From the sequence record OR699282.2: a stretch of 64,000 bases of DNA. One strand, given 5' to 3'. A program made the position numbers and the translations under genes. The stretch is from Escherichia phage BAU.Micro_ELP-22. How positions within the stretch are numbered: position 1 is the first letter of the stretch; every line of letters begins with the position of its first letter. This document shows positions 6,937-21,755 of the stretch, in pieces. A model generated the notes under the pieces. The model worked only from the letters and a program-made list of their open reading frames with translations, made no database searches and was not told the origin of the DNA.

Positions 6937-7071
<135 letters not shown>

Positions 7072-7073
7072 TA

Positions 7074-7130
<57 letters not shown>

Positions 7131-7215: not shown

Positions 7216-7316
<101 letters not shown>

Positions 7317-7328
7317 TATCTTACTTCT

Positions 7329-7407
<79 letters not shown>

Positions 7408-7424
7408 CAAAATAAAGGTACACT

Positions 7425-8428: not shown

Positions 8429-8441
8429 CTCGGAGCTTAAT

Positions 8442-8633
8442 ATGTTTTGGAATTTGTTATGCTTATTTGGTCGTACATTGGTTCTTGCTATTATTCATAC
8501 ACCTGGTATTCGTAATTATGTTTCTTATGAATTTAAGAAAAATTATCATAACAATACTGAAGTTCGTACAACTAAGATGTGCAAAGACTTCAAGGTAGAT
8601 GTTCCACCATTCAAGAAGTACGAGGATGAATAA
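8442..8633 (+). CDS. hypothetical small protein
   Basis: 63-codon ORF with GGAG SD. Confidence 0.4.
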   Translation: MFWNLLCLFGRTLVLAIIHTPGIRNYVSYEFKKNYHNNTEVRTTKMCKDFKVDVPPFKKYEDE

Positions 8634-8917
8634 TGGAATTCATTGTTGCACCTGATGAACTTAAAACATTTACGTTCAGAGATAATAACAATTATCCTTA
8701 TACAAATCATTCATTGAATTCATTGCATGTTATTTCAATCATTGCATCTGAATACAGAGATAATCCATGTATTGATTTTAAAACCACTGATGGTGAATAT
8801 ACATGGGTGTTCCCAAAAGATAAATATAGTTATCAAGGGGCAGTAGAAATTCGTGACTCGATTCTAAAACAAATCGAAGATGGAAATACTCATCCTAAAC
8901 TAAACACTCAGTACTGA
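8633..8917 (+). CDS. hypothetical protein
   Basis: 94-codon ORF, ATG overlaps upstream stop. Confidence 0.5.
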   Translation: MEFIVAPDELKTFTFRDNNNYPYTNHSLNSLHVISIIASEYRDNPCIDFKTTDGEYTWVFPKDKYSYQGAVEIRDSILKQIEDGNTHPKLNTQY

Positions 8918-9104
8918 AATCGTTTAACCCGATAGCTTCTAGTCAGTACTGATTCCTCCTTATGTATAGAAGCTATCACTTTTTTACGTATAATGATATT
9001 ACCCTCAAATTCATTATATTCGTTACCCTCTAACAGTATCTTTTTATTCCTCTTGGATGCTGTAATTTAGAAGTTGACTTTTTAACTTCTACTGTGTTAT
9101 ACTT

Positions 9105-9133
9105 AAGGCTGATTCGATGAATCGGCCTTTTTT
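9105..9133 (+). terminator. rho-independent terminator
   Basis: 11 bp stem AAGGCTGATTC/GAATCGGCCTT with GAT loop, then TTTTTT. Confidence 0.7.
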
Positions 9134-9142
9134 CTTATATAG

Positions 9143-9571
9143 GTGAATGCAATGAGTTATTTGTTTACTTTAATTGATAAGTATGTTGACATTGTATACC
9201 GTCAAGTTTGTAGTGATACGTTTGAAACAAAAAACCCAATTAGAGATGGCATTTTTGATGTTGTCGTTGGATCATTTTTGAATGGATACACCGAGACATT
9301 ATACAACAGTAATAATATTTTTATTTCAGTTCAATCCAGACATACATCAGACTATGCTGTTAGCATTGATATTTGGGAAAATAATATAGAAATAGATATA
9401 ACGGAACATACTAACATTCATGTTGATGATACATTTAATCAATTAACTGAAGAAATGTACTTGCAGTTGAATTTTGTACATGATCTTACAAATATCAGTT
9501 ATGATACATTAAGGAAAATATGTTTTCTTAGTGGGGTGATCCGTAGTAATATGAGTAAGGATGGGAAGTGA
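9143..9571 (+). CDS. hypothetical protein, FQxSTV-motif family
   Basis: 142 codons; C-term motif TEEMYLQLNFVHDLTNISYDTL. Confidence 0.55.
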   Translation: MNAMSYLFTLIDKYVDIVYRQVCSDTFETKNPIRDGIFDVVVGSFLNGYTETLYNSNNIFISVQSRHTSDYAVSIDIWENNIEIDITEHTNIHVDDTFNQLTEEMYLQLNFVHDLTNISYDTLRKICFLSGVIRSNMSKDGK

Positions 9572-9572
9572 A

Positions 9573-9989
9573 ATGTTAAAAATTCCACCTAAGTCGTTAA
9601 CACATCTTATTGAATGTGGTGTAATATTTTCCGAAGGTGATACCTCATCATACACATCGGTCGATGAACCTTATAATTTTTCATACCAATCTTATAAAAA
9701 TAATTCTAAAATTTCTTGTAGATATGCTGAAAACATATTAATAGATGTTTCGTTACATAATGTTCCGAAATTTTACATTGATATCTTTGGTGATTCTTTG
9801 ACAATTCGAACATATGATTATTTTATTAATAACGACCTCTTGAGTCTTCCAATTGAACATGATACTATAGATTCAGAGATGTTCTTTCAACTATCAACAG
9901 TTTACGATTTACAGGGTTTAACTGTTGAGCAGTTGAATGGAATATTTGAGATTTCACGAAACATACGAAGCAGGAATAAAAATGTCTAA
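9573..9989 (+). CDS. hypothetical protein, FQxSTV-motif family
   Basis: Start moved to second ATG after upstream stop; C-term DSEMFFQLSTVYDLQGLTVEQL. Confidence 0.5.
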   Translation: MLKIPPKSLTHLIECGVIFSEGDTSSYTSVDEPYNFSYQSYKNNSKISCRYAENILIDVSLHNVPKFYIDIFGDSLTIRTYDYFINNDLLSLPIEHDTIDSEMFFQLSTVYDLQGLTVEQLNGIFEISRNIRSRNKNV

Positions 9990-10392
9990 TATTTTAAATG
10001 AAAAAACAGTTGATGTTGTTATTGGTGTTCTTAACACCGCAACTTCATTTCAGAAGAAACACAGTGTTGTATACTTCGGTGAAGATTGTTGGCTGAACTA
10101 TACTAATAATTCGTTTATAATTCGTGTAGAGGCTGATGATATTGGATTAACCGTTCAGGTAGGATGTGCCAAAACTGACAAACAAATCACTGTCATTGTT
10201 GATAAACTTACGTCTTCTTTTTATGATAGTATAGATGATTGTGAACACTATAGTTCAACATTTTATGATACAGAAGAAGAACATTTTATGGAAAGTACTG
10301 TTCAAGAGTTAGCTATTCCATATAAGCTAATGAAAGCAGTGAGTGATTTAATTTTAAAATATAAAAAAATAGGAGTTACTAATGCAATTTAA
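9982..10392 (+). CDS. hypothetical protein, FQxSTV-motif family
   Basis: ATG after CAGGAA; C-term EEEHFMESTVQELAIPYKL. Confidence 0.5.
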   Translation: MSNILNEKTVDVVIGVLNTATSFQKKHSVVYFGEDCWLNYTNNSFIIRVEADDIGLTVQVGCAKTDKQITVIVDKLTSSFYDSIDDCEHYSSTFYDTEEEHFMESTVQELAIPYKLMKAVSDLILKYKKIGVTNAI

Positions 10393-10828
10393 TGGTAAAG
10401 TTTCCAAAGTAGGTTTGGTTTTTGAAAACTGTGAATTTGTTGATATTGATGTAAAGAATGTTTTATGGATGCATATTGCTGATGAGAAGACTCTTTGTAG
10501 CCGTTTTTCAAACGGACTGACAATTAGTACTGTTATCGGTGAGTTCGGTATTGCATTACGCAGCAATACACCATCGGATTTCATGGACAACTCTACACTG
10601 TTAGACCGTTTAAAAATGCGTGACGTTACACACGTTTATCTATATGATACTAACGGTGTTGAACAGCGTTATGTAGTTGAATGGGCTAATTATAACCTTA
10701 GTGATCAATATTCAGTAAACCAGCGTGTTCAAATCACCCCTGGTGGTAATATTGTGTTTGTTAGTTCAACTGGTAAATTAATCAGTGTAGATGATAAAAA
10801 CATTGACCTATTCACAGCATATAACTAA
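10382..10828 (+). CDS. hypothetical protein
   Basis: 148-codon ORF. Confidence 0.55.
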   Translation: MQFNGKVSKVGLVFENCEFVDIDVKNVLWMHIADEKTLCSRFSNGLTISTVIGEFGIALRSNTPSDFMDNSTLLDRLKMRDVTHVYLYDTNGVEQRYVVEWANYNLSDQYSVNQRVQITPGGNIVFVSSTGKLISVDDKNIDLFTAYN

Positions 10829-10839
10829 TACGAGCTTCC

Positions 10840-11259
10840 ATGAAAACAATCAAAATTCATTTCAAAGACACTTGGACAGAAGTAAGTACTGGTAATATTC
10901 AGGATATTTTATATAGTACTGAAACTATTCATGTTTATGATGAAGAGACTGCTTCCGAGCAGTTAAAAGTTTTGCATCGTAGTGTTGGTGTGCACACTGA
11001 ATATGGCATTAAACATACTCGTGAATTACTTAATACTAATCACATTGAAACCCGTAAAGCAAACTTATCAAAAGAAGAAATGTTCGATTTCATCCTGAAC
11101 CATAAAGTTCATATTGAGCCTGATGGGTCTATATGGGAGAACACTGCTGGACAAAAAGTGCTGAAAAAATATCATGTTTCAATTGATAATGTAAAAATGT
11201 CAGGGTATGATTTGGAAGATGCAATTAATGAATATGTATCTAGGCAGAGGGCAAATTGA
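10840..11259 (+). CDS. hypothetical protein
   Basis: 139-codon ORF. Confidence 0.55.
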   Translation: MKTIKIHFKDTWTEVSTGNIQDILYSTETIHVYDEETASEQLKVLHRSVGVHTEYGIKHTRELLNTNHIETRKANLSKEEMFDFILNHKVHIEPDGSIWENTAGQKVLKKYHVSIDNVKMSGYDLEDAINEYVSRQRAN

Positions 11260-11630
11260 TGAGCTTGATAACATTTACAATTATTTGTTGCATTACTATT
11301 GTACTTTGTCGCCTGATTCATGTATACTCATATCATAAAGCGTTGCGAATCGAACAAGAGATTTACAACGAAAACCGAGAACCAGAACCAGTCAAGAAGC
11401 CACCATCACCTTATGGGTTGAAACGTGAGATGCATTCTCAAAGTAAAAAGTGGGGTTATGCAATTACTAAAAATGGCTACATCTATACTGCAAGTAATGG
11501 TTATTTTCAAATTCACCACGAATTAGAAGTGGCAGTTCAAATTTTGTGGGAGATGGAGGACATTGGTGGTTATGAGCGTACTAAGTTTGAATTCATATCA
11601 AATGATCCAGGAACTTCACGAGAAACATGA
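11256..11630 (+). CDS. hypothetical protein with N-terminal transmembrane segment
   Basis: 124 codons; hydrophobic N-terminus. Confidence 0.55.
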   Translation: MMSLITFTIICCITIVLCRLIHVYSYHKALRIEQEIYNENREPEPVKKPPSPYGLKREMHSQSKKWGYAITKNGYIYTASNGYFQIHHELEVAVQILWEMEDIGGYERTKFEFISNDPGTSRET

Positions 11631-11775
11631 TATAATTGTTGATGTGGAGAAGAAGGAAGTCGTTATGAAAAAGCAAGCATATAGAATTTTAGAAGACTTC
11701 CATCTAAAAGCATTTATAATGAAGTTCTGTACAGATGAACATCTTACCGGACGAGTAATACGTAAGGAGTTGTAA

Positions 11776-12117
11776 ATGAACTTAAGTTCAACAATTCAGT
11801 ACTTGAGCAGTAACTTCGAGAAAATTATTTCTCGCGGTGGGATGATTGTACACCCAGAAACAGAGGAAATGTACATCATTGGATTTGATAAAAATTCTTA
11901 TGATCAAGTACTTGTAATTTCCAAGTTAGAAAGTTATAATGAAGTTGTTCAGTTTTGCTGTACCGAATTTGGTATCTATATTAAAGACGCTGAAACTAAT
12001 ACAATTTCGCATTATTTTTACCACACACTGATGGGTACTAAAGACTTCGGCTTGAAGTTCGATGATTTAGTACAATGTCACTATATGTTTAAAACCTTCC
12101 CAGCTAGTGGGCATTAA
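11776..12117 (+). CDS. hypothetical protein
   Basis: 113-codon ORF with AAGGAG SD. Confidence 0.55.
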   Translation: MNLSSTIQYLSSNFEKIISRGGMIVHPETEEMYIIGFDKNSYDQVLVISKLESYNEVVQFCCTEFGIYIKDAETNTISHYFYHTLMGTKDFGLKFDDLVQCHYMFKTFPASGH

Positions 12118-12130
12118 GGAGTATATCAAT

Positions 12131-12919
12131 ATGAGCAACATTTTCTTCAAAACTATTTCTTTCAAAAAAGCATCTTACTCCTACGCCTACGTTGATGGTA
12201 AAGTGCTTAATATTGTACTGGATGGTGTTGACGTACCAGTTGAATTTAAAACACATGAAGAAGCAGTTGAAGGTGCTAAAGAATTGAATTCAATTCTTAA
12301 TGGTGAAGTAAGTCAAAAACAACATGTAAAATCTGATTTAGATGTACTTTTGGAAAAAATCAAAACTGGTGAAGTATTAGAAATTTTAGACAACTGTAAT
12401 GAAAAACTTCGTAATGTAGTTAATAATGTTCGTGACCAGATTCAAGAAAAAGCACTAGAGCAAGCATTCAAACATGTATCCAAGAATGCTGAATCTCGTA
12501 TTGACGGTATGGTTAAAAATCTTGATGATGTACTATCCCATCTCTTTACTAAAGAATACGAACAAGAAGTTGAAGAAGAACCAGTAAAAGAAACTAAAAA
12601 AGAAAAACGTAGCTTTGGCTCAGGTGATGATGTGTTTGGTTTTACGAATGTCAGAACAAGTGCAGATGAACCAAAAGAAATTAGTGAGATGCTCATTGGT
12701 GACATGACAACTAAGCAGCTTCGTAATGAAATTGACAAGTTTGTAACTAGTTGTATCAAATCAGAACGTGCACAAAGTATGTTTAAAAGCATTAGTGAGA
12801 ACTTTGGTCCAGAAGCAACTGAGCAGGCACTAACTGCATTTAAAGAATTGATTTATAATGTAGCCATTAGCAATCCAGATAAAACACTTGAAGAAGTTCT
12901 ACGTGACAATTTCAAATAA
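12131..12919 (+). CDS. hypothetical acidic protein
   Basis: ATG 9 nt after AAGGAG; ends just before terminator. Confidence 0.6.
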   Translation: MSNIFFKTISFKKASYSYAYVDGKVLNIVLDGVDVPVEFKTHEEAVEGAKELNSILNGEVSQKQHVKSDLDVLLEKIKTGEVLEILDNCNEKLRNVVNNVRDQIQEKALEQAFKHVSKNAESRIDGMVKNLDDVLSHLFTKEYEQEVEEEPVKETKKEKRSFGSGDDVFGFTNVRTSADEPKEISEMLIGDMTTKQLRNEIDKFVTSCIKSERAQSMFKSISENFGPEATEQALTAFKELIYNVAISNPDKTLEEVLRDNFK

Positions 12920-12932
12920 TTAGATAAAATTA

Positions 12933-12960
12933 AAGCCACTACAATGTAGTGGCTTTTTTT
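12933..12960. terminator. bidirectional rho-independent terminator
   Basis: AAAGCCACTAC-AAT-GTAGTGGCTTTTTTT between convergent genes. Confidence 0.75.
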
Positions 12961-12961
12961 A

Positions 12962-14116
12962 TTATGCGTTGTAACCAACTATTACGACTGAGCAGTCAAG
13001 CGGTTCTACTACTTTAAGAATTACATTATCATCTTCATCCACTTGTATTTCACTATGAACTACATGATTGTCTGAAGAATATAATTGAACTTGTGGTAGT
13101 GCTTTACCATGTTCAGTTACTGGAACTGAGATAGAGTACATAGAGTCTTCACCGAGAACCCACTCACTTAAAGTATATTCTTTATGGAAAGGAGTAGTAT
13201 GCAGTGTTTTTCCGATTATACTCAAAGAAACAGGTAAATTATCAGTTTGATACACAGTAATATTACCTTCTGCGTCTACAGAAAGATCTACACCAACTTG
13301 ATATAAGTCACCACTGTATGCTTGAAGTGCTAAGTACTGTCCACGATCATGAACATCAAATGGAACAACCGCAGAAAATACACCTTCCGAAACAGGTTCA
13401 AATTGGGATAGAAGAACTGATGTAACAAAATCAATATCCTCACCACTTTCAAGAACATCAAATTCCACCACTTTAGTGTTATAATATGGAGAAGTGAGTG
13501 TAGCAGTACCTTTCCCTGATTGTGTGATAACATCAACTGGAATTGTAAATGCATCATTAACAAATTGGGTAGTAAAGTATTCTGTCCCGTCTGGTAATAC
13601 GATTGTTATTACCATACCGTTAGTATCAATTTCTGAACCAGTGTTGAATAATTTACCACTAATTGAGTCATTACCAACAAATACTGGTGAAATGAGAATA
13701 TTATCTATATCACGATCTATAATACCACATTCAGGTGTATACATATGATACAAGGTTTGTGAACTACCTAAAATTGTTTTATGTAGCATGAATTTATATA
13801 CAAATCCAGTATCAGTTTCTTGTGGCTCTTCAGAATATCCACGAACAAAGAAACAATTTTTATTAATTTCACTTAATAGTTGGTCATTAGTTTTATTGTA
13901 ATTTAATAGATAACCTTTATTATCTTTAGTTGTTATTTGTACTTTACGATATATTATATTAGTTCTTGGATCAACTAAATCATATAATCTATGGCTTCTT
14001 TGGCGATAGATTCTAATATTTTTTAGTCTAGTTCCATCATTGAGGATTGCACCATCAACAACATAACCACATTCACCAAACTTATAGCGTCCAGCCGCAG
14101 CAATTGACCTTGACAT
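12962..14116 (-). CDS. hypothetical protein (single inverted gene)
   Basis: 384-codon minus-strand ORF with GGAGGG SD and TATAAT on minus strand at 14120-14160. Confidence 0.7.
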   Translation of the reverse strand: MSRSIAAAGRYKFGECGYVVDGAILNDGTRLKNIRIYRQRSHRLYDLVDPRTNIIYRKVQITTKDNKGYLLNYNKTNDQLLSEINKNCFFVRGYSEEPQETDTGFVYKFMLHKTILGSSQTLYHMYTPECGIIDRDIDNILISPVFVGNDSISGKLFNTGSEIDTNGMVITIVLPDGTEYFTTQFVNDAFTIPVDVITQSGKGTATLTSPYYNTKVVEFDVLESGEDIDFVTSVLLSQFEPVSEGVFSAVVPFDVHDRGQYLALQAYSGDLYQVGVDLSVDAEGNITVYQTDNLPVSLSIIGKTLHTTPFHKEYTLSEWVLGEDSMYSISVPVTEHGKALPQVQLYSSDNHVVHSEIQVDEDDNVILKVVEPLDCSVVIVGYNA

Positions 14117-14175
14117 TTATCCCTCCATTGGTATAATTATTATAACGTATTTATTATGCATATCCAAAAAATGAG

Positions 14176-14204
14176 CTTGACTGGTGTATGATTTGGTGTT
14201 ATCA
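14176..14204 (+). promoter_or_regulatory. sigma70-like promoter TTGACT-N17-TATCAT
   Basis: Divergent from minus-strand promoter of 12962..14116. Confidence 0.5.
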
Positions 14205-14232
14205 TGTAGTGAATGAATAATGAGGTGTTTTT

Positions 14233-14817
14233 ATGAATGTTATTGATAATAGATTAGTACTGAAAAATGGAAAAATGACTGTTAAGTTATATAAAGATGA
14301 AGCTGATTCCTTTATGGCAAAAGCGATTGAAAAATCAGAAAGATATAAACTTTTGGCTCCAGCAAGTAAATCGCCATATGGTTTTAATCATGCACATAGT
14401 CATTTTGTTGGTATGGTGTGTGAGCACGCATCTTTAGTACTTTTTAATGAAATTGAAAACAATACTGGTATTAAACTTAATATCGATCCAGCATTCCAAA
14501 ATGAAGCACGTGACGGTGAATGTGATATTAAGGTAAACAACCTTCGTATTGAAGTAAAAGGTATCAAGTATAAATCATGGACTGACTTTGGACCATGTGT
14601 TAGTACTCGACAGTTAAAAAATATCCAGAAAAAAGCTGACGTAATACTATGGGTATTGTATAATGAGAAAAAACAAGAGTTCACGTTTGAGGGATTCAAC
14701 TATGTAAAAGATATTAGTTCTATCCCAGTTGTCCTCACTGGTGTACCAGGGCGACCAATGATTGAAAATCACCCAGTACTCGGTATTATGAAACCACTAC
14801 AGGAGTTACCATTGTGA
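14233..14817 (+). CDS. hypothetical protein (possible PD-(D/E)xK-like motif)
   Basis: 194 codons; DGECDIKVNNLRIEVKG resembles D...ExK nuclease core (weak). Confidence 0.6.
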   Translation: MNVIDNRLVLKNGKMTVKLYKDEADSFMAKAIEKSERYKLLAPASKSPYGFNHAHSHFVGMVCEHASLVLFNEIENNTGIKLNIDPAFQNEARDGECDIKVNNLRIEVKGIKYKSWTDFGPCVSTRQLKNIQKKADVILWVLYNEKKQEFTFEGFNYVKDISSIPVVLTGVPGRPMIENHPVLGIMKPLQELPL

Positions 14818-15041
14818 TTACTGCAACTGTATATCAAGATATCAATGAAGAATTTCATTCTAAAATTGCGTTCTTATCATTTCCTGTACTCCCAGTAGTT
14901 GGGTCAACGTTGAATCTTACCATTTGTGGGTTTGAGAAATATTATAAAGTTCTAGATATTGAGTACTGTGCTGATGTGTATTCATGTAATAGTGAAATTG
15001 CAATTCCAGTATCAATCGATATTATTGTAAAAGAGGTTTGA
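14814..15041 (+). CDS. hypothetical small protein
   Basis: 75-codon ORF, overlapping start. Confidence 0.5.
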   Translation: MITATVYQDINEEFHSKIAFLSFPVLPVVGSTLNLTICGFEKYYKVLDIEYCADVYSCNSEIAIPVSIDIIVKEV

Positions 15042-15499
15042 TTATGTTTAAGAATTTTATGGTTATCGTAGCAGTACTGTTTGGCACATCATGTTTTATT
15101 TCCCCAGTACACGCAGAAGAACAACGTCAAACTATTAAAACTATTGGGACTGGTAAAACTCCCCCTAAACGTACTGCTGACGAATACATGCCTGAAATGC
15201 GTGAACGTTATCGTCAGACATACAGGGAAAAACATGCTAATGATAAACCCATCAAGAAGCATAAATGGGAAGTTGTTAAATCTCCTTCATTTTGTGCTGG
15301 ATATGCTAAAGTAAAGATTGAGCAGCACAAAAACCAGTACTATAAAGATATGTATTCCTTCTATGACTCCAGAATTTCTGACACAGATATGATGGCAGGG
15401 AAGGTTGATAAAGAAGAATTTCTACAAGGCTATGATATGATGGACGATGACAAAATCATGGAATGCGTTGAAGTGTATGAAAAATACAGAGGCTTCTGA
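15038..15499 (+). CDS. secreted protein with signal peptide
   Basis: N-terminus MIMFKNFMVIVAVLFGTSCFISPVHA then charged mature region. Confidence 0.6.
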   Translation: MIMFKNFMVIVAVLFGTSCFISPVHAEEQRQTIKTIGTGKTPPKRTADEYMPEMRERYRQTYREKHANDKPIKKHKWEVVKSPSFCAGYAKVKIEQHKNQYYKDMYSFYDSRISDTDMMAGKVDKEEFLQGYDMMDDDKIMECVEVYEKYRGF

Positions 15500-15975
15500 T
15501 GTTAACAATAGTGTTGTTGGTAAGTCCATTTGTGTATTTTGTGCTGTATAATATTTTTAGTAATGCTAATCATTTTAAATATGCACAAACAATTGCAAAA
15601 CATGAAGGATTTTGGAATTTTTTCCCAGCGTTACTATGCTCATATCTATACCATGAACGCTATTTCATTTTTCCTGAATATAAAAATTATGGTTATGATT
15701 CTAAAGTAAATGGTATAATTGAGTACTGTATAAGAAATTATCTTAATAATAATGATAACGTCCAAGTAAGAATAGGAAATGGTAATATATCAAGAATAGT
15801 TTTCATACCTGATATACAAGACCCAATATACTTATATCCATATGATTATAGTATTAGTGTAGGTTGTTCGATACATGGTAGTAAATCTATGTACGATTAC
15901 TTTATCTTACCACCAACACAAATTAAATTAATAGAAAAATATTTGAGGGAAAAGTTTGACAACAAAGATTCTTAG
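15499..15975 (+). CDS. hypothetical membrane-anchored protein
   Basis: 158 codons; hydrophobic N-terminus. Confidence 0.55.
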   Translation: MLTIVLLVSPFVYFVLYNIFSNANHFKYAQTIAKHEGFWNFFPALLCSYLYHERYFIFPEYKNYGYDSKVNGIIEYCIRNYLNNNDNVQVRIGNGNISRIVFIPDIQDPIYLYPYDYSISVGCSIHGSKSMYDYFILPPTQIKLIEKYLREKFDNKDS

Positions 15976-16016
15976 TATTATAATTAACACACCAAGTAAC
16001 CCAAGGGGGATGGAAA

Positions 16017-16475
16017 ATGGATGTATTAGCTACAAATTTCAAACGTAATGTTGAAGAGCGTGAAGGTTATTTTAGTATTAGTGAAGTTGTCGATGACAAT
16101 TTTAAACAATACATTTTTAATAGTGCAATTAAATTAAAATGCACAAAAGATTCACCTGATCGTAGCTTTACTAAATGGATTGCGTATTGGGAAGATTCAC
16201 CAGTTGCAATTGAAATGACTGTGATTACAACAGTACTTGAAACTGGTTACATCAAAGCCATTATAGTTGATAAGAAAGTCCGTACTCTTGATGAAATTAA
16301 TCCATATCCAGCCCGAAATTCTAAAGTTTTTGGTGTGTTGGTTGATGGTAAATTTATGATAGAAAAAGATGCAAAGGAATATGTAATTAATAAACTTCAA
16401 ACTACATCAGAAAAAAAGGAAGTAGTGGACCAAAACTCTGTTGATGCAATCAAAAAAGCATGGGGACTAAAGTAA
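16017..16475 (+). CDS. hypothetical protein
   Basis: 152 codons, GGGGGA SD. Confidence 0.55.
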   Translation: MDVLATNFKRNVEEREGYFSISEVVDDNFKQYIFNSAIKLKCTKDSPDRSFTKWIAYWEDSPVAIEMTVITTVLETGYIKAIIVDKKVRTLDEINPYPARNSKVFGVLVDGKFMIEKDAKEYVINKLQTTSEKKEVVDQNSVDAIKKAWGLK

Positions 16476-16476
16476 T

Positions 16477-16899
16477 ATGTTCACACTAAGTAATGCAAAA
16501 TATCTTTTTCTTATTAGTATTATTGGTTGGGTTATGGCTCCAGTGCTAAATGCACTGGGGTTTTCCGATGAACATAAACTTTTAAATGTTTCAGGTTTAA
16601 TTCAGGGTATTTCATGGTATACATTAATTACATTTTCAGTGTGCATCAATACATTTGCCCGTGATTATCGACGTTTGTTATATCTGAAAGTATTTGGAAC
16701 TACACGATATAGTTTTGTTTACACTTTCATTTTAGTACCGTGTATGTTATATGCATTTGTATTTGATTACTATACATATCTATGGGTATGTGGAACTATG
16801 TTTGTTATGTTGGAATACATCAGAACTGTTCAAAACTCATATGCCGATGAGTTTCATGATCTAGAAGTTAAACGAAAATTAACGGAGCTAAACAAATGA
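16477..16899 (+). CDS. integral membrane protein
   Basis: 140 codons, multiple hydrophobic segments. Confidence 0.55.
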   Translation: MFTLSNAKYLFLISIIGWVMAPVLNALGFSDEHKLLNVSGLIQGISWYTLITFSVCINTFARDYRRLLYLKVFGTTRYSFVYTFILVPCMLYAFVFDYYTYLWVCGTMFVMLEYIRTVQNSYADEFHDLEVKRKLTELNK

Positions 16900-17321
16900 G
16901 AGGCTATAATAAGATTTGTATTTTTGTATTTTTAGTTTGTGCATTCAATTCGTTTGGTTACTACTGTACAGAAAATAATATTTCATATGGTTTAAATCCT
17001 TTGTGGTTTACAATTTCCAATGTAGCACAAATTGGTATTGCTCTTATGTCTGCACTTATGTTCTGTCCAATTGTCACTATGGATACTGATCATGAAAGGC
17101 TTGGATTTCTCCGTGATACTGGAGACGAACCTTACAGTAGATTGATTGTGTTGTATCCATTTATTGTTATTTTAGGTACTAACATCCAACTTGGGTCATT
17201 ATCTAATAGTGTTACATCAGCAGCTATTGCTATATTTGCATTCACATTTTTTATGGTACACAAATCAGTACTTAATTGGTATATCACAAAAATGGCAGAA
17301 GAAGGTACTAAAAATACTTGA
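16896..17321 (+). CDS. integral membrane protein
   Basis: 141 codons, multiple hydrophobic segments. Confidence 0.55.
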   Translation: MRGYNKICIFVFLVCAFNSFGYYCTENNISYGLNPLWFTISNVAQIGIALMSALMFCPIVTMDTDHERLGFLRDTGDEPYSRLIVLYPFIVILGTNIQLGSLSNSVTSAAIAIFAFTFFMVHKSVLNWYITKMAEEGTKNT

Positions 17322-17346
17322 CATAATTTAGTATGTTATATATAAT
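17318..17346 (+). promoter_or_regulatory. sigma70-like promoter TTGACA-N17-TATAAT
   Basis: TTGACATAATTTAGTATGTTATATATAAT. Confidence 0.55.
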
Positions 17347-17380
17347 TATTTTGTTAAAAACAAATTAGAGTAAGGAACTT

Positions 17381-17632
17381 ATGAACATCGATAAGGTCAA
17401 AGAACTTAGTGCTGCACTAATTAAGAATGAAGAAGTTTGTGAAGAACTTCGCAGTACTATCAAAGTTGAGTACGCACGACTCCAAGGTATGCTTCAAGAA
17501 TCAGAATGGGTAGTAACTAAATCTATCGAAGCAATCTATAAGGATATCGAATCCCTTTTCAACAAGAAAAGTAAGATTGAATCTGATTCATATAACAAAC
17601 GTAAAGAGTTATCTACTGCACTTGGTATCTAA
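17381..17632 (+). CDS. hypothetical protein
   Basis: 83 codons, AAGGAA SD. Confidence 0.5.
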   Translation: MNIDKVKELSAALIKNEEVCEELRSTIKVEYARLQGMLQESEWVVTKSIEAIYKDIESLFNKKSKIESDSYNKRKELSTALGI

Positions 17633-17706
17633 AAGTATTTGAGATAACAAATAATATGGAGTACAATGTGCTCCTAATTTAATTATCAGCTAAAAAGGAA
17701 AACATT

Positions 17707-17967
17707 ATGAAATCTATTCTCGTTGCAGTTAACCTGGTTGCTTCCCCATCTTTCAACTTCAAACAAGTTGTTGCTGATAATCTGAAGAAGATCTGTCCAA
17801 ACGCTGAATTAACTTTCTGTGTGTTTGATTCAGAAAAAGTAACTAAAGTTGATCTAAACTATCTTTTGAACGAAGTAAAAAGCGTTTCTGGTGAAAGTAA
17901 CTTAAAAGTTCTTCATGATATTGCAGAAGATTATGATGACACTCTAGTAATTTCGGAGAAATTCTAA
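17707..17967 (+). CDS. hypothetical protein
   Basis: 86 codons, AAAGGAAA SD. Confidence 0.5.
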   Translation: MKSILVAVNLVASPSFNFKQVVADNLKKICPNAELTFCVFDSEKVTKVDLNYLLNEVKSVSGESNLKVLHDIAEDYDDTLVISEKF

Positions 17968-17972
17968 ATCAA

Positions 17973-18392
17973 ATGATTACATTCATTCAGTACTTAATCA
18001 TTAAATTTTTTGGCTATCATACGATTGAAGGCAAAGCTACACTCGCACATAAAATCTTTGTAGCATTATGTACGGGTGATTATGACGTATTGAATAAGTA
18101 CTGTAAATCTAAAGCATGTATTGATATAATGGCACTTCGTATCTATGAGTGCCGTTCCAATAGATACAATTTTTACCAATACAGATTTGATGAAAAAGAA
18201 TTTGATAGCATCAAAATGCTTAAGAATTTATGTAACAATAAAAAGAATATGCATATATCAGAATTTGTTGCTTTGTATTTTTATTTAAAAAGTTCATTGT
18301 ATATGAACACAATGCAAAGATTCGATACTAGAATTAATGTATTCACCGATAAAGAATTTTATATATACGATAAATTCTTAGATAAGGTTTAA
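17973..18392 (+). CDS. hypothetical protein
   Basis: 139-codon ORF. Confidence 0.5.
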   Translation: MITFIQYLIIKFFGYHTIEGKATLAHKIFVALCTGDYDVLNKYCKSKACIDIMALRIYECRSNRYNFYQYRFDEKEFDSIKMLKNLCNNKKNMHISEFVALYFYLKSSLYMNTMQRFDTRINVFTDKEFYIYDKFLDKV

Positions 18393-18912: not shown

Positions 18913-19878
18913 GTGAAAAAGCTTGATTTAAATACAATTGCCGAAGAAGTTCTGGATGAATGTTTTGCTAATGAAGAAGTCAACACACTAGAAGCCTTAG
19001 ATTTCGTTGAAGATAAAGATGAAAATGAAGGTAAAGTACAAAGCAGTTTCAAATATAATATTACACTTAAGCGACCACCAAATGTTTCCAATGAAGATCT
19101 AATTCGTGATATTCAAGCTGGTATCAATGTAAAGAAAAACACTGAACTGTTAGTTCGTTACAATTATGGACTGATTATTGATGTAGCAAGTAAATGTACT
19201 TGTTATATCCCATTTGAAGATAAGATTTCATATGGTGTTGAGGGGTTCATGAGAGCACTAAAAACCTTTGATCTTAATAAGAATGTTAAGTTCATTACCT
19301 ATGCTTCTTCTAGTATTTACATGACAGTCTATAACGAAAGTTCTGACGCTAACTATATGGTACACTTCCCACGTTATATGAGTGTTCATAAGATCAAAGT
19401 AAAAAGATTCTGTCAGGAATATATGCGTAAACATGGTGTTCGCCCAACTCCTGAAATAATCTCAGAGGGTACTGGGATTGAGATTCAGCATGTTAATAAT
19501 TGTTTGTTATTTCAAAGCGAATACACTTCGCTGGATGCACCATTAGACGGTGTTACAGATGGTACATTAGGTGACATTATTCATTCACCTGCTTCTGATT
19601 TTAACCTCAATGTTGATAGTATCCGTGCACCTTTACGTTATGCTATCAATGAACTGACTAACGAATTGAGTACTAAAGAACGTGAGATTATCCAGCGTGT
19701 TCATGGTCTAGGTGAATATGAACCTGAAACGCTTCGTGAGATTGCTGATAATGGTTTTGTTGATGATAATGGAAAATATGTTAAATCCCGTTCATCAATA
19801 CACCGAAAGTACAGTGAAGCTATGCAAAAGCTTAAGAAGTTAGTACTTGCAAAAGGGTACGAATACGAAGATTTCTAA
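18913..19878 (+). CDS. sigma-70 family RNA polymerase sigma factor
   Basis: GTG start after TAGGAG; regions 2 and 4 recognisable: NVKFITYASSSIYMTV, HFPRYM, GVRPTPEIISE, LSTKEREIIQRVHGL..TLREIA. Confidence 0.7.
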   Translation: MKKLDLNTIAEEVLDECFANEEVNTLEALDFVEDKDENEGKVQSSFKYNITLKRPPNVSNEDLIRDIQAGINVKKNTELLVRYNYGLIIDVASKCTCYIPFEDKISYGVEGFMRALKTFDLNKNVKFITYASSSIYMTVYNESSDANYMVHFPRYMSVHKIKVKRFCQEYMRKHGVRPTPEIISEGTGIEIQHVNNCLLFQSEYTSLDAPLDGVTDGTLGDIIHSPASDFNLNVDSIRAPLRYAINELTNELSTKEREIIQRVHGLGEYEPETLREIADNGFVDDNGKYVKSRSSIHRKYSEAMQKLKKLVLAKGYEYEDF

Positions 19879-19884
19879 AGAACA

Positions 19885-19911
19885 AGGGTTGGCTTATGCC
19901 AACCTTTTTTT
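19885..19911 (+). terminator. rho-independent terminator
   Basis: GGTTGGC-TTAT-GCCAACC followed by TTTTTTT. Confidence 0.8.
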
Positions 19912-19949
19912 ATGGGATGAAGTAAAAGTTTGTGATATAATTATCTTGT

Positions 19950-20430
19950 ACAATTCTGTTGGCATGATATTCATGTACCTGATCCACTCGAAAACGTAGA
20001 GGGCAGTTGAGCAGTCCGACAGTGCGAACAGCAAAAGAAACCCGTTAGATGTGGGCATAGTTTGAACCCCTCACGGCAATGCGGCTGTATAAAGAACCAC
20101 GTTAGGATAGCTGGTGGTTCCTTGATAGACATATAAGGATAACACCTTACGAATTATCTAAGGGAGAGTTATCGAATTTTGTACAGGAAAGTTGCGTCCA
20201 AAATTTGAGTACTCACATTAAGTATTTGATTGCATAGATACTTAATGAAGATACACTATGTTTAAAAGTGTAGACCGTCATATGAAACTGAAGTAGAGAG
20301 AAACAGGATGACCCGCTTTCGCACTCGTTATGAGTAATCTTCAATGCAATAGCTCTGATACCATCAGCGTCAAATTTCCCTCCTTGTGGGGGGAAGAAAA
20401 ATCCCTTCCTCAAATCCCGTCAATATTAAA
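19950..20430 (+). ncRNA. candidate structured noncoding RNA
   Basis: ~600 bp gene-free, GC-richer interval between terminator and next promoter; extended -10 TGATATAAT at 19933-19941; G/C hairpins. Confidence 0.3.
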
Positions 20431-20435
20431 AGTCC

Positions 20436-20464
20436 TTGACAGTTATTAATCATTCGCGTAGAAT
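20436..20464 (+). promoter_or_regulatory. sigma70-like promoter TTGACA-N17-TAGAAT
   Basis: Upstream of 20529 operon. Confidence 0.55.
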
Positions 20465-20528
20465 ACGTAGTATTAGAAGCGAACAGACATCTCGAAGAGA
20501 TGGATGATTAACCATTAAGGAATATCCA

Positions 20529-20738
20529 ATGAATTCAGTAATCTTTTTAGTAGTCGCTTTTTCTGTTAATTCCGGTGTACAAATAACCCCAATGAATTCC
20601 ATGAATCAATGTATAGCAGTACGTGATAGTACATACGAACAAGTAAACAAAGATATTTGGATTACAGTTAATAAAGAACAAATGTGGTGTTACAATAGTA
20701 ATACTAACACAAAGCTTATTGTAGGACAAACTCAATGA
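20529..20738 (+). CDS. small secreted protein
   Basis: 69 codons; hydrophobic N-terminus. Confidence 0.5.
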   Translation: MNSVIFLVVAFSVNSGVQITPMNSMNQCIAVRDSTYEQVNKDIWITVNKEQMWCYNSNTNTKLIVGQTQ

Positions 20739-20966: not shown

Positions 20967-21755
20967 ATGAGCACTATAGATGAACTGATTCGACGGAATT
21001 CAAAATATTACCAACCATCAGAAATTGTAGGTAACATTACCAAATCAGAGTTTGGTCCAAATACTCGAAAACTCATTCATGTAATGTCACGTGATGGCTT
21101 TAAATGTGATTGTTGTGGTGAATCAAATGTAGTATTCACTTTACACAAGCACAGTACTAAAGAACGTTATAAATTCAGACCTTATGTACTTAAAGGGAAA
21201 CGCCTTGTACGCATGACGTTAGACCATAATGTACTGGACTGTCTTCAGGGCGGTAATGATAAAGAGAACATGACTGCACTGTGTGAAGATTGTAACGCAT
21301 TACGCCAGCATAAGTTTGCTGAATACAGTGAGTTTAAACACTGGTATCATAACGCGGATCGTTCAATCGAGCCTGACGTTAACTACTGCTTCATTGAGTA
21401 CATTAAGAATGCCAAAGATACATACATTCTTAAATCAATGTCACCTATTACCGTGTTTCCTGAGAACCTATTCACTACATTAAAGAATAGTTTTATTGTA
21501 GGTGATATTGATGCATTCAAGTATTTTGACAAAGGTGCAAAACATTTTGAAATTCAATGTCTTAGTACTGCACTATGTGAACTCATTAAAATTTACATAA
21601 AAGAGTATTTGGGTATTGACAATGTACGTGTACCAGAGTATACTTTTTCTATTGAATTCGATTGTGAATCAATCAAAGAGTTTGGAATTCTTTTCAATAA
21701 ACAAATAGAACTTGCAATTCAAAACGAAATCAAGTACTATACTACTAACATTTAA
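20967..21755 (+). CDS. HNH endonuclease-like protein
   Basis: CDCCGES zinc-ribbon Cys plus LDHNVLDCLQGGNDKENMTALCEDCNALRQH (HNH core). Confidence 0.6.
   Translation: MSTIDELIRRNSKYYQPSEIVGNITKSEFGPNTRKLIHVMSRDGFKCDCCGESNVVFTLHKHSTKERYKFRPYVLKGKRLVRMTLDHNVLDCLQGGNDKENMTALCEDCNALRQHKFAEYSEFKHWYHNADRSIEPDVNYCFIEYIKNAKDTYILKSMSPITVFPENLFTTLKNSFIVGDIDAFKYFDKGAKHFEIQCLSTALCELIKIYIKEYLGIDNVRVPEYTFSIEFDCESIKEFGILFNKQIELAIQNEIKYYTTNI

What the first reader, a model, noticed from the sequence alone, without database searches (positions are those of the whole stretch)
19912..20528. ~600 bp gene-free, GC-richer, structured interval after the sigma factor gene
Between a strong terminator (19885-19911) and the next promoter (20436-20464) there is no SD-supported ORF (only a 66-codon minus-strand ORF without signals); the sequence is markedly more G/C-rich than its flanks, has an extended -10 promoter at 19933-19941 and several G/C hairpins. 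Candidate stable noncoding RNA or regulatory structured element.
Basis: inference. Interest (0 to 1): 0.5.

Follow-up and report, generated by a model that had tools for sequence, protein, structure and literature searches.

The report
New large structured phage RNA gene
The gene-free stretch after the sigma factor gene of this giant E. coli phage encodes a roughly 480-base, intricately folded non-coding RNA of a family not previously described; the phage carries four copies, and small mobile islands in gut bacteria carry one, but its job is unknown.

Summary
Window 19912-20528 has no credible ORF, is richer in G+C than its flanks, follows a terminator and starts with an extended -10 promoter.

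The window is Escherichia jumbo phage phAPEC6 (Asteriusvirus). The interval is a gene for a large structured RNA. It matches none of the 4227 Rfam families, and I found no paper describing it.

It is one of four dispersed, same-strand paralogues per genome (five in some related genera). It is conserved in 61 jumbo-phage records, in 56 metagenome loci and in 7 bacterial-genome contigs.

On a 38-sequence alignment, my 79-pair model is 94.7% paired, against about 40% when partners are slid. Fifty-four pairs change on both sides. The model has three pseudoknot-type interactions. G.U cells outnumber A.C cells 191 to 30, which fixes the + strand as the RNA.

Every full-length copy has the same sigma-70-like promoter. 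One paralogue lies between opposite-strand genes, so it is a stand-alone unit.

In bacteria the RNA sits next to an integrase in small islands. One carries candidate defence genes and another a weak DarT-like match.

Function is inferred only. Most likely it is a trans-acting folded RNA. Rivals are a replication-origin primer RNA or a cis-acting leader.

The parts
19884..19914 (+). Intrinsic terminator of the upstream sigma-factor gene (ORF 18913-19878). It marks the left border of the unit.
   Evidence: 10-pair stem at 19884-19907 plus a T-run; the upstream ORF matches Sigma70 regions r3, r4 and r2; r3 is above Pfam's cutoff, r4 and r2 just below.
19913..19941 (+). Promoter of the RNA gene: -35-like TGGGAT (19913-19918), a 17-nt spacer, and an extended -10 TGATATAAT (19933-19941).
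   Evidence: One search shows the sequence. One search finds the same TGrrAY-17-TATAAT arrangement with an upstream TG in all 41 full-length copies, phage and bacterial; the CBB genome paper (PMC5259590) describes this promoter class (TGAAACG at -35, TATA at -10).
19948..20425 (+). Conserved core of the structured RNA. The start is inferred as about 7 nt after the -10 box. The end is set just after the invariant CAAAUCCCGUCA (20411-20422). The true ends are unknown.
   Evidence: nhmmer finds a single hit in the window, 19903-20549, E = 1e-143; alignment A1 has about 90 invariant columns; covariation.
19963..19975 (+). 5' variable hairpin (CAUGA/UCAUG).
   Evidence: the phage copies have a hairpin at this position with unrelated stem sequences (for example GGGGC/GCCCC and CCUUG/CAAGG).
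19979..20006 (+). Hairpin with the conserved loop GAAAAYGUA. Stems are 19979-19981/20004-20006 and 19985-19989/19999-20003.
   Evidence: helix 1 has 3 of 3 counted pairs changed on both sides and 86.8% of cells paired. The alignment is partly shifted here.
20011..20088 (+). 5' domain. Helices are 20011-20013/20023-20025, 20028-20032/20084-20088 and 20042-20045/20073-20076. They enclose a conserved internal loop (AAAAGAAAC / CAAUGCG) and a variable hairpin at 20051-20071.
   Evidence: helices 2-4 are 100% paired, with AU/UA and GC/CG swaps. RNAalifold recovers them.
20094..20120 (+). Hairpin 20094-20099/20115-20120. Its loop (20105-20107) pairs with 20157-20159, forming pseudoknot PK1.
   Evidence: in helices 5 and 6 all 6 pairs change on both sides. 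For PK1, 2 of 3 pairs change on both sides and 82% of cells are paired.
20121..20166 (+). Strongly conserved junction GAUAGACAUAUAAGG...CCUUACC...UAAGGGAG, with the small hairpin 20134-20137/20146-20149 and the 3' strand of PK1.
   Evidence: many invariant columns; helix 8.
20166..20214 (+). Helix 20166-20169/20211-20214 enclosing the AAUUUUG/CAAAAUU stem and the recurrent module GUACAGGAAAGUUGCGUCC.
   Evidence: helices 9 and 10; the module occurs once or twice per RNA, at two different sites across the family.
20216..20247 (+). Hairpin 20216-20225/20238-20247. Its loop AUUGCAU (20229-20235) pairs with AUGCAAU (20344-20350), forming pseudoknot PK2.
   Evidence: helix 11 has 10 of 10 pairs changed on both sides. 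Helix 12 (PK2) has 7 of 7 pairs changed on both sides and 99.6% of cells paired. RNAalifold also picks PK2.
20252..20350 (+). 3' pseudoknotted domain. It holds the hairpin 20252-20256/20268-20272 and the helix 20277-20281/20308-20312. That helix crosses helices 20289-20293/20339-20343 and 20296-20300/20316-20320. The domain also holds the hairpin 20323-20326/20332-20335 and the 3' strand of PK2.
   Evidence: helices 13-17 are 98-100% paired, with changes on both sides in 14 of 20 pairs.
20357..20422 (+). 3' conserved segment. It comprises a weak helix 20357-20360/20368-20371 around the invariant CAUCAGCGUCA, a hairpin 20380-20384/20389-20393 with an invariant G-run, and the conserved AUGAAA...CAAAUCCCGUCA.
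   Evidence: In helix 19 only the C/U arm varies (U.G or C.G pairs), which fits + strand RNA. Whether this segment is part of the same transcript in all lineages is unresolved.
20453..20483 (+). Downstream hairpin (UUCGC...GCGAA) whose loop holds ACGUAGU. It is the counterpart of a hairpin with the loop (G)AACGUAGUGAG found 50-110 nt after CCGUCA in most copies. It may belong to the unit.
   Evidence: raw comparison of 46 downstream flanks. It overlaps the sigma-70-like promoter at 20436-20464. No covariation count was made.
20436..20464 (+). Sigma-70-like promoter TTGACA-17-TAGAAT for the next ORFs, the first at 20529-20738. It marks the right border.

Best explanation
The interval is a gene for a large (at least ~480 nt) non-coding RNA that works through its folded shape. 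It is not a message and not a DNA site.

Shown:
- It is transcription-ready, with its own conserved sigma-70-type extended -10 promoter pointing rightwards.
- It is one of four ancient paralogues in this phage.
- The family keeps about 90 invariant nucleotides and a multi-domain fold with at least 19 helices and three pseudoknot-type interactions. The fold is maintained by compensatory changes on the + strand.
- The family also occurs, with the same promoter, in small integrase-bearing islands of Enterobacterales. One of these islands carries candidate defence genes.

Inferred:
- The RNA acts in trans as a folded particle: a scaffold for host or phage proteins, a ribozyme, or a self-assembling RNA, comparable in kind to the phage-associated large RNAs ROOL and GOLLD.
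- It serves phage-host or phage-island conflict rather than regulation of the neighbouring genes.
- The four copies would supply dosage, or variants with different peripheral helices.
For: Conservation:
- 61 jumbo-phage records carry it, with 3-5 places per record. Identity is about 70% across genera in a stretch without a conserved ORF.
- There are four same-strand copies in a 352-kb genome. In phage 121Q they lie at 90.3, 192.8, 247.5 and 326.6 kb.

Structure:
- 94.7% of cells are paired, against 40-42% when partners are slid.
- 54 of 79 pairs change on both sides, against 17-23 when slid.
- The covariation score is 0.506, against 0.06-0.10 when slid, and 0 of 500 shuffles reach it.
- RNAalifold, run independently, recovers most helices (36 of its 60 pairs have compensatory changes).
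- A 5' hairpin is conserved in shape but not in sequence.

Strand: 191 G.U cells against 30 A.C cells.

Promoter: it is conserved in all 41 full-length copies, and the promoter class is described for phage CBB.

Stand-alone unit: paralogue 3 lies between minus-strand genes, endonuclease VII and a baseplate hub gene. In the islands the RNA is convergent with the repressor gene.

No partner gene: no protein is shared between the islands and the phage. An RNA that works alone, or with host factors, fits this.
Against: - No transcript has been observed, and no RNA-seq data exist for this phage group.
- The 3' end is undefined. The window copy has no terminator before the next ORFs. One lineage has a terminator-like hairpin right after the promoter, and another has one inside the unit.
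- Each paralogue lineage has been kept at a syntenic place across genera, with no homogenisation between copies. A position-specific (cis) role would explain this more simply than a trans role.
- Single-sequence folding energy is not exceptional.
- My structure was chosen on the same alignment on which it was scored. The counts therefore lean towards it, although the margin over the controls is very large.
Confidence: 0.6

Rival explanations
1. Origin-priming RNA. Each copy would mark a replication origin. The transcript from the conserved promoter would fold, form a persistent RNA-DNA hybrid near the invariant G-run, and prime the phage's T4-type replisome. This would resemble ColE1 RNA II or the transcripts made at T4 origins from middle promoters. 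Islands carrying one copy would be replicated by an infecting jumbo phage.
For: - There are four to five dispersed copies per 350-kb genome, each kept at its own place across genera.
- In phage CBB this promoter class clusters upstream of DNA-synthesis genes.
- About 500 nt separate the promoter from an invariant G6 run whose partner arm varies only between C and U. Conserved sequence follows, and there is no consistent terminator.
- A single copy sits in roughly 10-kb islands in which no replication genes were recognised and which share no protein with the phage.
- From my own knowledge: ColE1 RNA II is about 550 nt and uses a G-rich RNA segment to form its hybrid, and T4 uses about five origins.
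Against: - About 90 invariant positions and three pseudoknot-type interactions are far more than any known primer RNA needs.
- One lineage has a terminator-like hairpin upstream of the G-run.
- The G-run hairpin shows the U.G tolerance expected of a folded RNA.
- The GC-skew profile shows no switch at three of the four copies. In this genome the skew follows gene orientation, so this test is weak either way.
- No iterons or marked AT-rich unwinding element were noticed by eye.
Confidence: 0.12
2. Cis-acting leader. The RNA would be the 5' part of the downstream operon's transcript and would control it. It could, for example, modify RNA polymerase into a terminator-resistant form, as the HK022 put RNAs do, or it could act as a very large riboswitch-like sensor placed ahead of a terminator.
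For: - The window copy and paralogues 2 and 4 are followed by genes in the same orientation, with no terminator in between.
- Several lineages keep the same downstream gene across genera.
- Terminator-like hairpins lie within or next to the unit in two lineages.
Against: - Paralogue 3 and its orthologues are followed by convergent genes, so there is nothing for them to read into.
- In the islands the RNA points at the 3' end of the repressor gene.
- Many copies, the window copy included, have a separate strong sigma-70-like promoter between the RNA and the next ORF.
- All paralogues keep the same invariant core although their downstream genes are unrelated.
Confidence: 0.1
3. A diverged member of a known RNA class that the Rfam models miss, such as a group I intron-like ribozyme, RNase P RNA, tmRNA or 6S RNA.
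For: - The size and the pseudoknotted architecture fit a ribozyme.
- The strand order in the 3' domain (helix A 5', helix B 5', A 3', hairpin, B 3') recalls the P3/P7/P8 order of group I introns.
- Short purine-rich stretches resemble RNase P junction sequences, judged by eye from my memory of the E. coli M1 RNA sequence.
Against: - No Rfam family reaches its gathering score in the window apart from tRNAs.
- A permissive scan of 19800-20600 up to E = 10 lists only chance-level matches to unrelated small RNAs. None is an intron, RNase P, tmRNA, 6S, ROOL or GOLLD.
- The unit has its own promoter and lies between genes, so it has no exons.
- There are four copies per genome.
Confidence: 0.04
4. 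Not an RNA at all: a repeated DNA element such as a protein-binding region, a recombination site or a remnant of a mobile element, or a decayed protein gene.
For: - It is a dispersed repeat.
- It is annotated as a 'repeat_region' in phage UE-S1 and as short hypothetical proteins in some records.
Against: - Compensatory changes preserve pairing within a single strand, and there is a 191:30 excess of G.U over A.C cells.
- Helix lengths vary through insertions and deletions that are not multiples of three.
- No ORF is conserved in strand or frame.
Confidence: 0.03

Closest known systems
ROOL and GOLLD (large 'ornate' RNAs of phages and prophages; Rfam families; cryo-EM structures in PMC12286853)
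   Same: - Several hundred nucleotides long.
- Many conserved junction nucleotides and long-range or pseudoknot contacts.
- Encoded by phages and mobile elements.
- No associated protein gene, and function unknown.
   Different: - There is no sequence or structure match.
- The hosts are Gram-negative Enterobacterales and relatives, and the carriers are lytic jumbo phages.
- It is present as 4-5 diverged paralogues per genome.
- It is not next to tRNA genes. The window's tRNA cluster is about 12 kb away.
- Self-assembly has not been tested.
ColE1-type RNA II and T4 origin transcripts (primer RNAs that form R-loops)
   Same: - It has its own promoter about 500 nt upstream of a G-rich segment.
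- It has a folded RNA.
- It occurs at several loci per phage genome.
- It is carried by small elements in which no replication genes were recognised.
   Different: - Conservation is much higher and the fold is pseudoknotted.
- There is no antisense regulator and no known origin at these loci.
- Hybrid formation is untested.
HK022 putL/putR and other processive-antitermination RNAs
   Same: It lies just downstream of a promoter, occurs in multiple copies per phage genome, and acts as a folded nascent RNA.
   Different: - The put RNAs are about 70 nt with two hairpins, whereas this RNA is about 480 nt.
- One paralogue and the island copies have no co-oriented downstream genes.
ncRNA001-004 of Pseudomonas jumbo phage PA5oct (found by RNA-seq; PMC7318152)
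   Same: - PA5oct is a jumbo phage distantly related to the 121Q/Rak2/GAP32 group.
- It has four ORF-free transcribed regions of 236-619 nt, two of them abundant.
- Their function is unknown.
   Different: nhmmer with the family profile finds nothing in the PA5oct stretch that holds ncRNA001 and ncRNA002. ncRNA003 and ncRNA004 were not examined.

Membership tests
Any Rfam 15 family (4227 covariance models) | A score at or above the family's gathering threshold. | tested here: not met
   only tRNAs pass in the whole window; within 19800-20600 the best scores are 12-20 bits against thresholds of 37-111, for unrelated small RNAs.
Group I intron | Insertion within a gene with flanking exons, and the P3-P9 core with a guanosine-binding P7. 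| tested here: not met
   The unit lies between a terminator and a promoter and has its own promoter. There is no match to the Rfam intron models up to E = 10. The P7 features could not be examined.
Bacterial RNase P RNA / tmRNA / 6S RNA | A match to the family covariance model. ARAGORN additionally detects tmRNA. | tested here: not met
   no match, and ARAGORN reports no tmRNA.
ROOL / GOLLD | A match to the Rfam models. | tested here: not met
   no match, even at E = 10.
ROOL / GOLLD | Homo-oligomeric cage assembly. | not testable with these tools
   This needs native gels or cryo-EM. PK2 covaries within each copy, so it could form within one molecule or between identical molecules.
ColE1-type primer RNA / R-loop origin | A persistent RNA-DNA hybrid and a DNA synthesis start at the locus. 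| not testable with these tools
   Only indirect data exist. The GC-skew profile is uninformative. An invariant G-run is present.
Processive antitermination RNA (put-like) | Placement at the start of an operon whose terminators it suppresses. | tested here: not met
   This holds for some copies only. Paralogue 3 and the island copies face convergent genes.
Protein-coding gene | An ORF conserved in strand and frame, longer than chance allows. | tested here: not met
   76.8 aa observed against 69.9 +/- 17.2 aa in shuffles, with varying strand and frame; the 66-aa ORF has no Pfam match.
Structured non-coding RNA gene (generic) | Conservation beyond close relatives, covarying base pairs, strand-specific G.U pairs, and its own promoter. 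| tested here: met
Structured non-coding RNA gene (generic) | A detectable transcript with defined ends. | not testable with these tools
   No transcriptome of an Asteriusvirus or a relative is in the paper library.

The most novel reading that the evidence does not exclude
The RNA is the element that links jumbo phages to small islands of their hosts, at least one of which carries candidate defence genes. The islands keep a copy of an essential phage RNA, with the phage-type promoter, for one of two purposes. Either they are replicated or mobilised by the infecting jumbo phage, which would make them the first satellites of jumbo phages. Or they titrate the factor that the phage RNAs need, which would be an RNA-decoy defence. 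The RNA itself would be a new ribozyme or a new self-assembling RNA particle.
Probability: 0.12. Interest if true: 0.92.

Novelty: categorically new. Interest (0 to 1): 0.8.

Why it matters
Large, intricately folded RNAs of phages such as ROOL and GOLLD have been known for years, but their function is still unknown. One reason, to my knowledge, is that their hosts are hard to work with. This family is comparably complex, with about 90 invariant nucleotides and three pseudoknot-type contacts. Unlike those RNAs, it sits in phages that grow on laboratory E. coli: phage Sharanji has K-12 MG1655 as its recorded host. Deletion, complementation, pull-down and cryo-EM experiments are therefore directly feasible.

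It also shows that annotated 'gaps' or short hypothetical ORFs in at least 61 jumbo-phage records hide a conserved multi-copy gene.

Finally, the same RNA, with the same promoter, occurs in integrase-bearing islands of Enterobacterales. One island carries the candidate defence system PDC-M45, and another has a weak DarT-like match. This points to an RNA-level link between jumbo phages and host mobile elements that has not been described.

Tried and rejected
- **Rfam.** I ran it at gathering thresholds on the whole window and permissively on 19800-20600. Nothing relevant appeared.
- **tRNA and tmRNA scan.** It found no tmRNA, and no tRNA at 19912-20528; the window's tRNA genes lie at 1985-7408.
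- **Other copies in the window.** Self-BLAST and nhmmer found none. The paralogues lie outside the 64-kb window.
- **PA5oct ncRNA001 and ncRNA002 as homologues.** Rejected, because nhmmer gives no hit.
- **A protein partner shared by islands and phage.** tblastn of all island ORFs against a complete phage genome gave only spurious ORFs inside the RNA, one weak 55-residue match (a 132-aa L179 ORF), and one DUF4326 domain match.
- **GC skew as an origin test.** Uninformative, because the skew tracks gene orientation.
- **Single-sequence folding energy.** It is not discriminating.
- **A 5'-3' closing helix.** RNAalifold pairs UGA (20008-20010) with UCA (20420-20422), but both are invariant, so there is no evidence either way.
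- **Internal fold of the GUACAAUAUAGAUCCGUC module.** I found no consistent pairing by eye.
- **The 3' conserved segment as a second promoter of the same class.** I read it that way, but the -10 region does not fit.
- **Literature.** Searches for this phage group, jumbo-phage ncRNAs and large phage RNAs found no description of this RNA. The 2023 catalogue of about 8,500 candidate phage RNAs (PMC10690425) could contain fragments of it. I did not open its supplements.
- **Covariance model.** I built none. The RNA exceeds the 400-column limit, and collections can only be scanned by exact pattern.
Full report
**1. Where the window comes from**

The interval and its flanks are 100% identical to Escherichia phage vB_EcoM_phAPEC6 (MK817115.1). 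This is a 352.6-kb jumbo phage of the genus Asteriusvirus. The window is the reverse complement of the record.

The ORF upstream of the interval (18913-19878) matches Sigma-70 regions r3, r4 and r2 (r3 above Pfam's cutoff, r4 and r2 just below) and is annotated as an RpoD-type sigma factor. Window G+C is 0.34.

**2. The observation**

- The terminator is at 19884-19907 plus a T-run, and the sigma-70-like promoter is at 20436-20464.
- The largest ORF lying wholly within the interval is a 66-codon minus-strand ORF, with 39- to 54-codon ORFs besides. It has no Pfam match.
- G+C is 0.394 in the interval and 0.411 in the core. The mean is 0.340 +/- 0.033 for windows of the same size, and only 2.8% of them reach the interval's value.
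- The extended -10 element TGATATAAT lies exactly at 19933-19941.

Folding energy alone would not have flagged the region. The z-score is -1.7 on the + strand and -1.3 on the - strand.

**3. A conserved, multi-copy element**

A sensitive BLAST of the core against 50,697 phage records finds 61 records, all with genomes of about 310-386 kb. They cover Escherichia, Salmonella, Klebsiella, Cronobacter (GAP32), Pectobacterium (CBB), Serratia (BF), Yersinia, Erwinia and Xanthomonas phages.
- Identity is about 70% over roughly 90% of the core in the distant genera.
- There are 3-5 matching places per record.

I assembled a near-identical, unannotated genome (ECO103 4-12-1, 351,992 bp). The four places are full-length paralogues on one strand, at 18.3, 128.4, 208.2 and 261.5 kb. 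In phage 121Q they lie at 90.3, 192.8, 247.5 and 326.6 kb, all on the + strand. The window holds only one copy.

The four paralogues share long identical blocks separated by segments of variable length.

**4. Collecting the family**

I ran exact-pattern scans with conserved blocks and confirmed the results with an nhmmer profile.
- IMG/VR: 22 and 40 loci from two patterns, with 46 profile hits.
- One genome per bacterial species: 68 pattern hits, of which 7 are real.

**5. It is not coding**

In 38 diverse copies the longest stop-free stretch averages 76.8 aa, against 69.9 +/- 17.2 aa in shuffles. Its strand, frame and position change from copy to copy. The length differences between copies are not multiples of three.

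**6. It has its own promoter**

All 41 full-length copies examined carry TGrrAY, then 17 nt, then TATAAT (TATACT in the bacterial copies). A TG, or sometimes TC, sits one base upstream of the -10 hexamer. In the window the elements are TGGGAT at 19913-19918 and TGATATAAT at 19933-19941.

The CBB genome paper describes this promoter class (TGAAACG at -35, TATA at -10). It notes that 11 of its 18 examples lie upstream of one genome region, several of whose ORFs encode DNA-synthesis functions (PMC5259590). I infer that host sigma-70 polymerase can use it, because the spacing is canonical and the -10 is extended. That inference is untested.

**7. Structure**

I aligned 38 sequences (alignment A1, 735 columns): the window copy, the three other 121Q paralogues, 28 IMG/VR copies and 6 bacterial copies. 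I searched all column pairs for runs of compatible, covarying pairs and assembled a model of 79 pairs in 19 helices.

Positions below use p = window coordinate - 19941.
- Hairpin p38-65, with the conserved loop GAAAAYGUA.
- p70-72/82-84.
- p87-91/143-147, enclosing p101-104/132-135 and a conserved internal loop.
- p153-158/174-179.
- PK1: the loop of the helix above, p164-166, pairs with p216-218.
- p193-196/205-208.
- p225-228/270-273, enclosing an A/U stem and a recurrent module.
- Hairpin p275-284/297-306.
- PK2: the loop of that hairpin, p288-294, pairs with p403-409.
- p311-315/327-331.
- p336-340/367-371, which crosses both p348-352/398-402 and p355-359/375-379.
- p382-385/391-394.
- p416-419/427-430.
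- p439-443/448-452.

The counts on A1 compare the model with controls in which every 3' partner is slid by 1-3 columns.

| Measure | Model | Slid controls |
|---|---|---|
| Cells forming a standard pair | 94.7% | 39.7-42.0% |
| Pairs changed on both sides | 54 of 79 | 17-23 |
| Cells changed on both sides | 530 | 52-95 |
| Covariation score | 0.506 | 0.060-0.103 |

None of 500 shuffles reaches any observed measure. PK2 is the clearest single feature: all seven pairs change on both sides and 99.6% of cells are paired.

RNAalifold was run without my model and cannot draw pseudoknots. It still recovers the helices at p70-84, p87-147, p101-135, p153-179, p193-208, PK2 (in place of the hairpin that PK2 crosses), p348-402, p355-379, p382-394 and the G-run hairpin. 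Thirty-six of its 60 pairs have compensatory changes.

A 5' hairpin (p22-34 in the window) is present in the phage copies with unrelated stem sequences.

Caveat: I chose the model on the same alignment on which it was scored, so the figures lean towards it. The margin over the slid controls and the independent RNAalifold result make chance very unlikely.

**8. Which strand**

In the modelled pairs there are 191 G.U cells and 30 A.C cells. The model is 94.7% paired read as + strand RNA and 89.2% read as the complement. The promoter points the same way.

**9. Context in the phage**

- Copy 1 (the window) follows the sigma factor gene. It is followed by a strong sigma-70-like promoter and small ORFs.
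- Copies 2 and 4 lie between co-oriented genes of unknown function.
- Copy 3 lies between two minus-strand genes, endonuclease VII and a baseplate hub gene. It is therefore an isolated + strand unit.

Clustering shows paralogue lineages that are each shared by several genera. The window copy is the most diverged member, at least 0.29 differences per site from every other, yet it keeps all helices through compensatory changes. The duplications are therefore old, and each copy has been maintained separately.

**10. Context in bacteria**

The seven genome hits are:
- the Serratia fonticola GTA-SR07 chromosome;
- Serratia sp. 2723;
- Enterobacter chinensis;
- Enterobacteriaceae bacterium RIT714;
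- a Buttiauxella MAG;
- an Enterobacteriaceae MAG;
- a 2.8-kb contig binned as Clostridium.

The RNA carries the same promoter there. It sits next to an integrase, either a large serine recombinase or a tyrosine integrase. In most cases it is convergent with a cI-type S24 repressor gene that is paired with a Ner-like HTH gene.

Only 2 of 5,426 complete E. coli genomes have a partial, roughly 70% match (56% of the query). In strain LR-29-1 it lies in a roughly 10-kb island inserted beside ffs. It occupies a 1.4-kb annotation gap. That island carries proteins matching the PADLOC candidate defence system PDC-M45 (E = 1e-58 and 1e-69). Another island has a weak DarT-like match (E = 1e-6) beside an ADP-ribosylglycohydrolase-like gene; the latter assignment rests on a sequence motif read by eye.

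No island protein has a homologue in the phage genome, apart from one weak 55-residue match and a DUF4326 domain.

**11. What it is not**

No Rfam family matches. This excludes ROOL, GOLLD, RNase P, tmRNA, 6S and the intron models at the sensitivity of those models. The RNA-seq-defined ncRNA001 and ncRNA002 of the related jumbo phage PA5oct are not detectable homologues. I found no paper that mentions this RNA.

**12. How it most likely works**

Shown: this is a conserved, promoter-equipped, + strand unit whose fold is under strong selection.

Inferred: it acts as a folded RNA in trans.
- It needs no neighbouring gene.
- One copy is a stand-alone unit.
- The island copies point at nothing they could regulate.
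- All paralogues keep the same invariant junctions, as ribozymes and RNP RNAs do.

Its presence both in lytic jumbo phages and in small integrative islands of their hosts, one of which carries candidate defence genes, suggests a role in conflict between them.

Two cis models stay open.
- **Origin-primer RNA.** In favour: 4-5 dispersed and individually conserved loci, a promoter class found upstream of a replication-gene region in CBB, and an invariant G6 run about 500 nt from the start. Also in favour: the islands have no recognised replication genes.
- **Leader or antiterminator RNA.** In favour: some copies run into co-oriented genes.

Neither explains the very high structural complexity, and the leader model fails for copy 3 and for the islands.

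I put about 0.9 on 'structured RNA gene of a new family' and about 0.5-0.6 on 'acts in trans'.

**13. Open details**

- The 3' end is unknown.
- One lineage has a terminator-like hairpin between the -10 box and the core. Another has one between CAGCGUCAAG and the G-run hairpin.
- A hairpin with the loop (G)AACGUAGUGAG recurs 50-110 nt downstream of the core in phage and island copies alike. In the window it lies at 20453-20483. The functional unit may therefore be about 550-650 nt long.

**14. Verdict**

By every test available here, the element is an undescribed family of large pseudoknotted RNAs, and it sits in an experimentally tractable coliphage.

Noticed in passing
window 1985-7408: A tRNA gene cluster. 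ARAGORN tRNAs (Gly x2, Ser x2, Met, Asn, Thr). Rfam adds a borderline tRNA at 3181-3259 (29.3 bits against a threshold of 29) that ARAGORN does not call. Rfam does not list ARAGORN's tRNA-Gly at 1985-2057.
   Followed up: no
window 20967-21755: A 262-aa ORF about 450 nt downstream of the RNA, with CxxC ... DHN ... CxxC motifs that read like an HNH endonuclease by eye. Pfam gives no match at E <= 0.01. The fEgEco12 genome paper lists an HNH endonuclease (Gp520) and the sigma factor (Gp519) among genes absent from the related phage Ecwhy_1.
   Followed up: partly
L011, L012, L014, L018, L022, L023, L027, L031 (121Q copy 2), L042: first ~40 nt after the -10 box: In this group of copies (most from one paralogue lineage) a canonical terminator-like hairpin plus a U6-7 run lies between the RNA's own -10 box and the conserved core. 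In phage G17 it is annotated as the upstream gene's terminator. How transcripts from the RNA promoter pass it is unexplained.
   Followed up: partly
L019, L028, L030, L032, L033, L035, L036, L038, L040, L046, L048, L049, L051, L053 (A1 columns ~648-680): A terminator-like hairpin with covarying stems and a U6-7 run is inserted between CAGCGUCAAG and the invariant G-run hairpin. The bacterial copies L113, L100, L115 and L066 have a hairpin at the same site without the U-run.
   Followed up: partly
window 20175-20205; second site in L028, L030, L032, L033, L035, L036, L040, L046, L048, L053 and the bacterial copies (A1 columns ~565-600): A roughly 19-nt module, GUACAAUAUAGAUCCGUCC (variant GUACAGGAAAGUUGCGUCC in the window), closed by an AAUUU/AAAUU stem. 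It occurs once or twice per RNA, at two different insertion points. It behaves like a portable RNA motif or a protein-binding site.
   Followed up: partly
window 20453-20483 and the equivalent flanks of 46 loci: A hairpin whose loop reads (G)AACGUAGUGAG or ACGAAGUGA recurs 50-110 nt downstream of the RNA core, in phage and island copies alike. Many copies also have A(A/C)AGUAC 15-25 nt after CCGUCA.
   Followed up: partly
L011, L012, L014, L018, L022, L023, L027, L043: ~230 nt after the RNA core: These copies are followed by at least 230 nt of further conserved, hairpin-rich sequence without an obvious ORF. It includes a TTGTATAAT extended -10-like element. It may be a second non-coding unit.
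   Followed up: no
L109 (Serratia fonticola GTA-SR07 chromosome) 4775-5490: Two tandem copies (98% identical) of an 87-aa gene lie next to the RNA, at the edge of an island that carries a serine recombinase and two ParB-like genes. By eye the gene reads as rof (Rho-binding antiterminator). It looks like a duplication made by island insertion beside tilS.
   Followed up: no
L247 (E. coli LR-29-1, NZ_AP027515.1) 7959-18303: A roughly 10-kb island inserted directly after ffs (the SRP RNA gene). It holds an IS3-disrupted tyrosine integrase, the RNA homologue in a 1.4-kb unannotated gap, and a DUF4326/DUF488/dual-OB gene trio. The DUF488 and dual-OB genes match the candidate defence system PDC-M45.
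   Followed up: partly
L172 1689-3998; L032, L035, L046, L047 just downstream of the RNA: ADP-ribosylation-related genes recur near the RNA. One island has a DarT-like gene (E = 1e-6) plus a 544-aa ARH-like gene. In several jumbo phages an ADP-ribosylglycohydrolase-like ORF (MIDKENRAIGSLVGLAVGDALG...) starts about 130 nt after one paralogue. The ARH assignments are by eye, and the recurrence may be coincidence.
   Followed up: no
L055 (PA5oct MK797984.1 8263-8498 and 21951-22401): The related Pseudomonas jumbo phage PA5oct has abundant ORF-free transcripts (ncRNA001 and ncRNA002, by RNA-seq). They show no detectable similarity to this family. Jumbo phages of this broad clade may therefore carry several unrelated large ncRNAs.
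   Followed up: partly
phage records SHEFM2K, E9.1, JP4, SD-15_S21, WPEC3 and others: Several deposited genomes annotate 3-5 short 'hypothetical proteins' across this RNA gene. UE-S1 annotates a 'repeat_region'. G17 and 121Q annotate a 51-aa ORF inside paralogue 4. These are probably over-predictions.
   Followed up: partly
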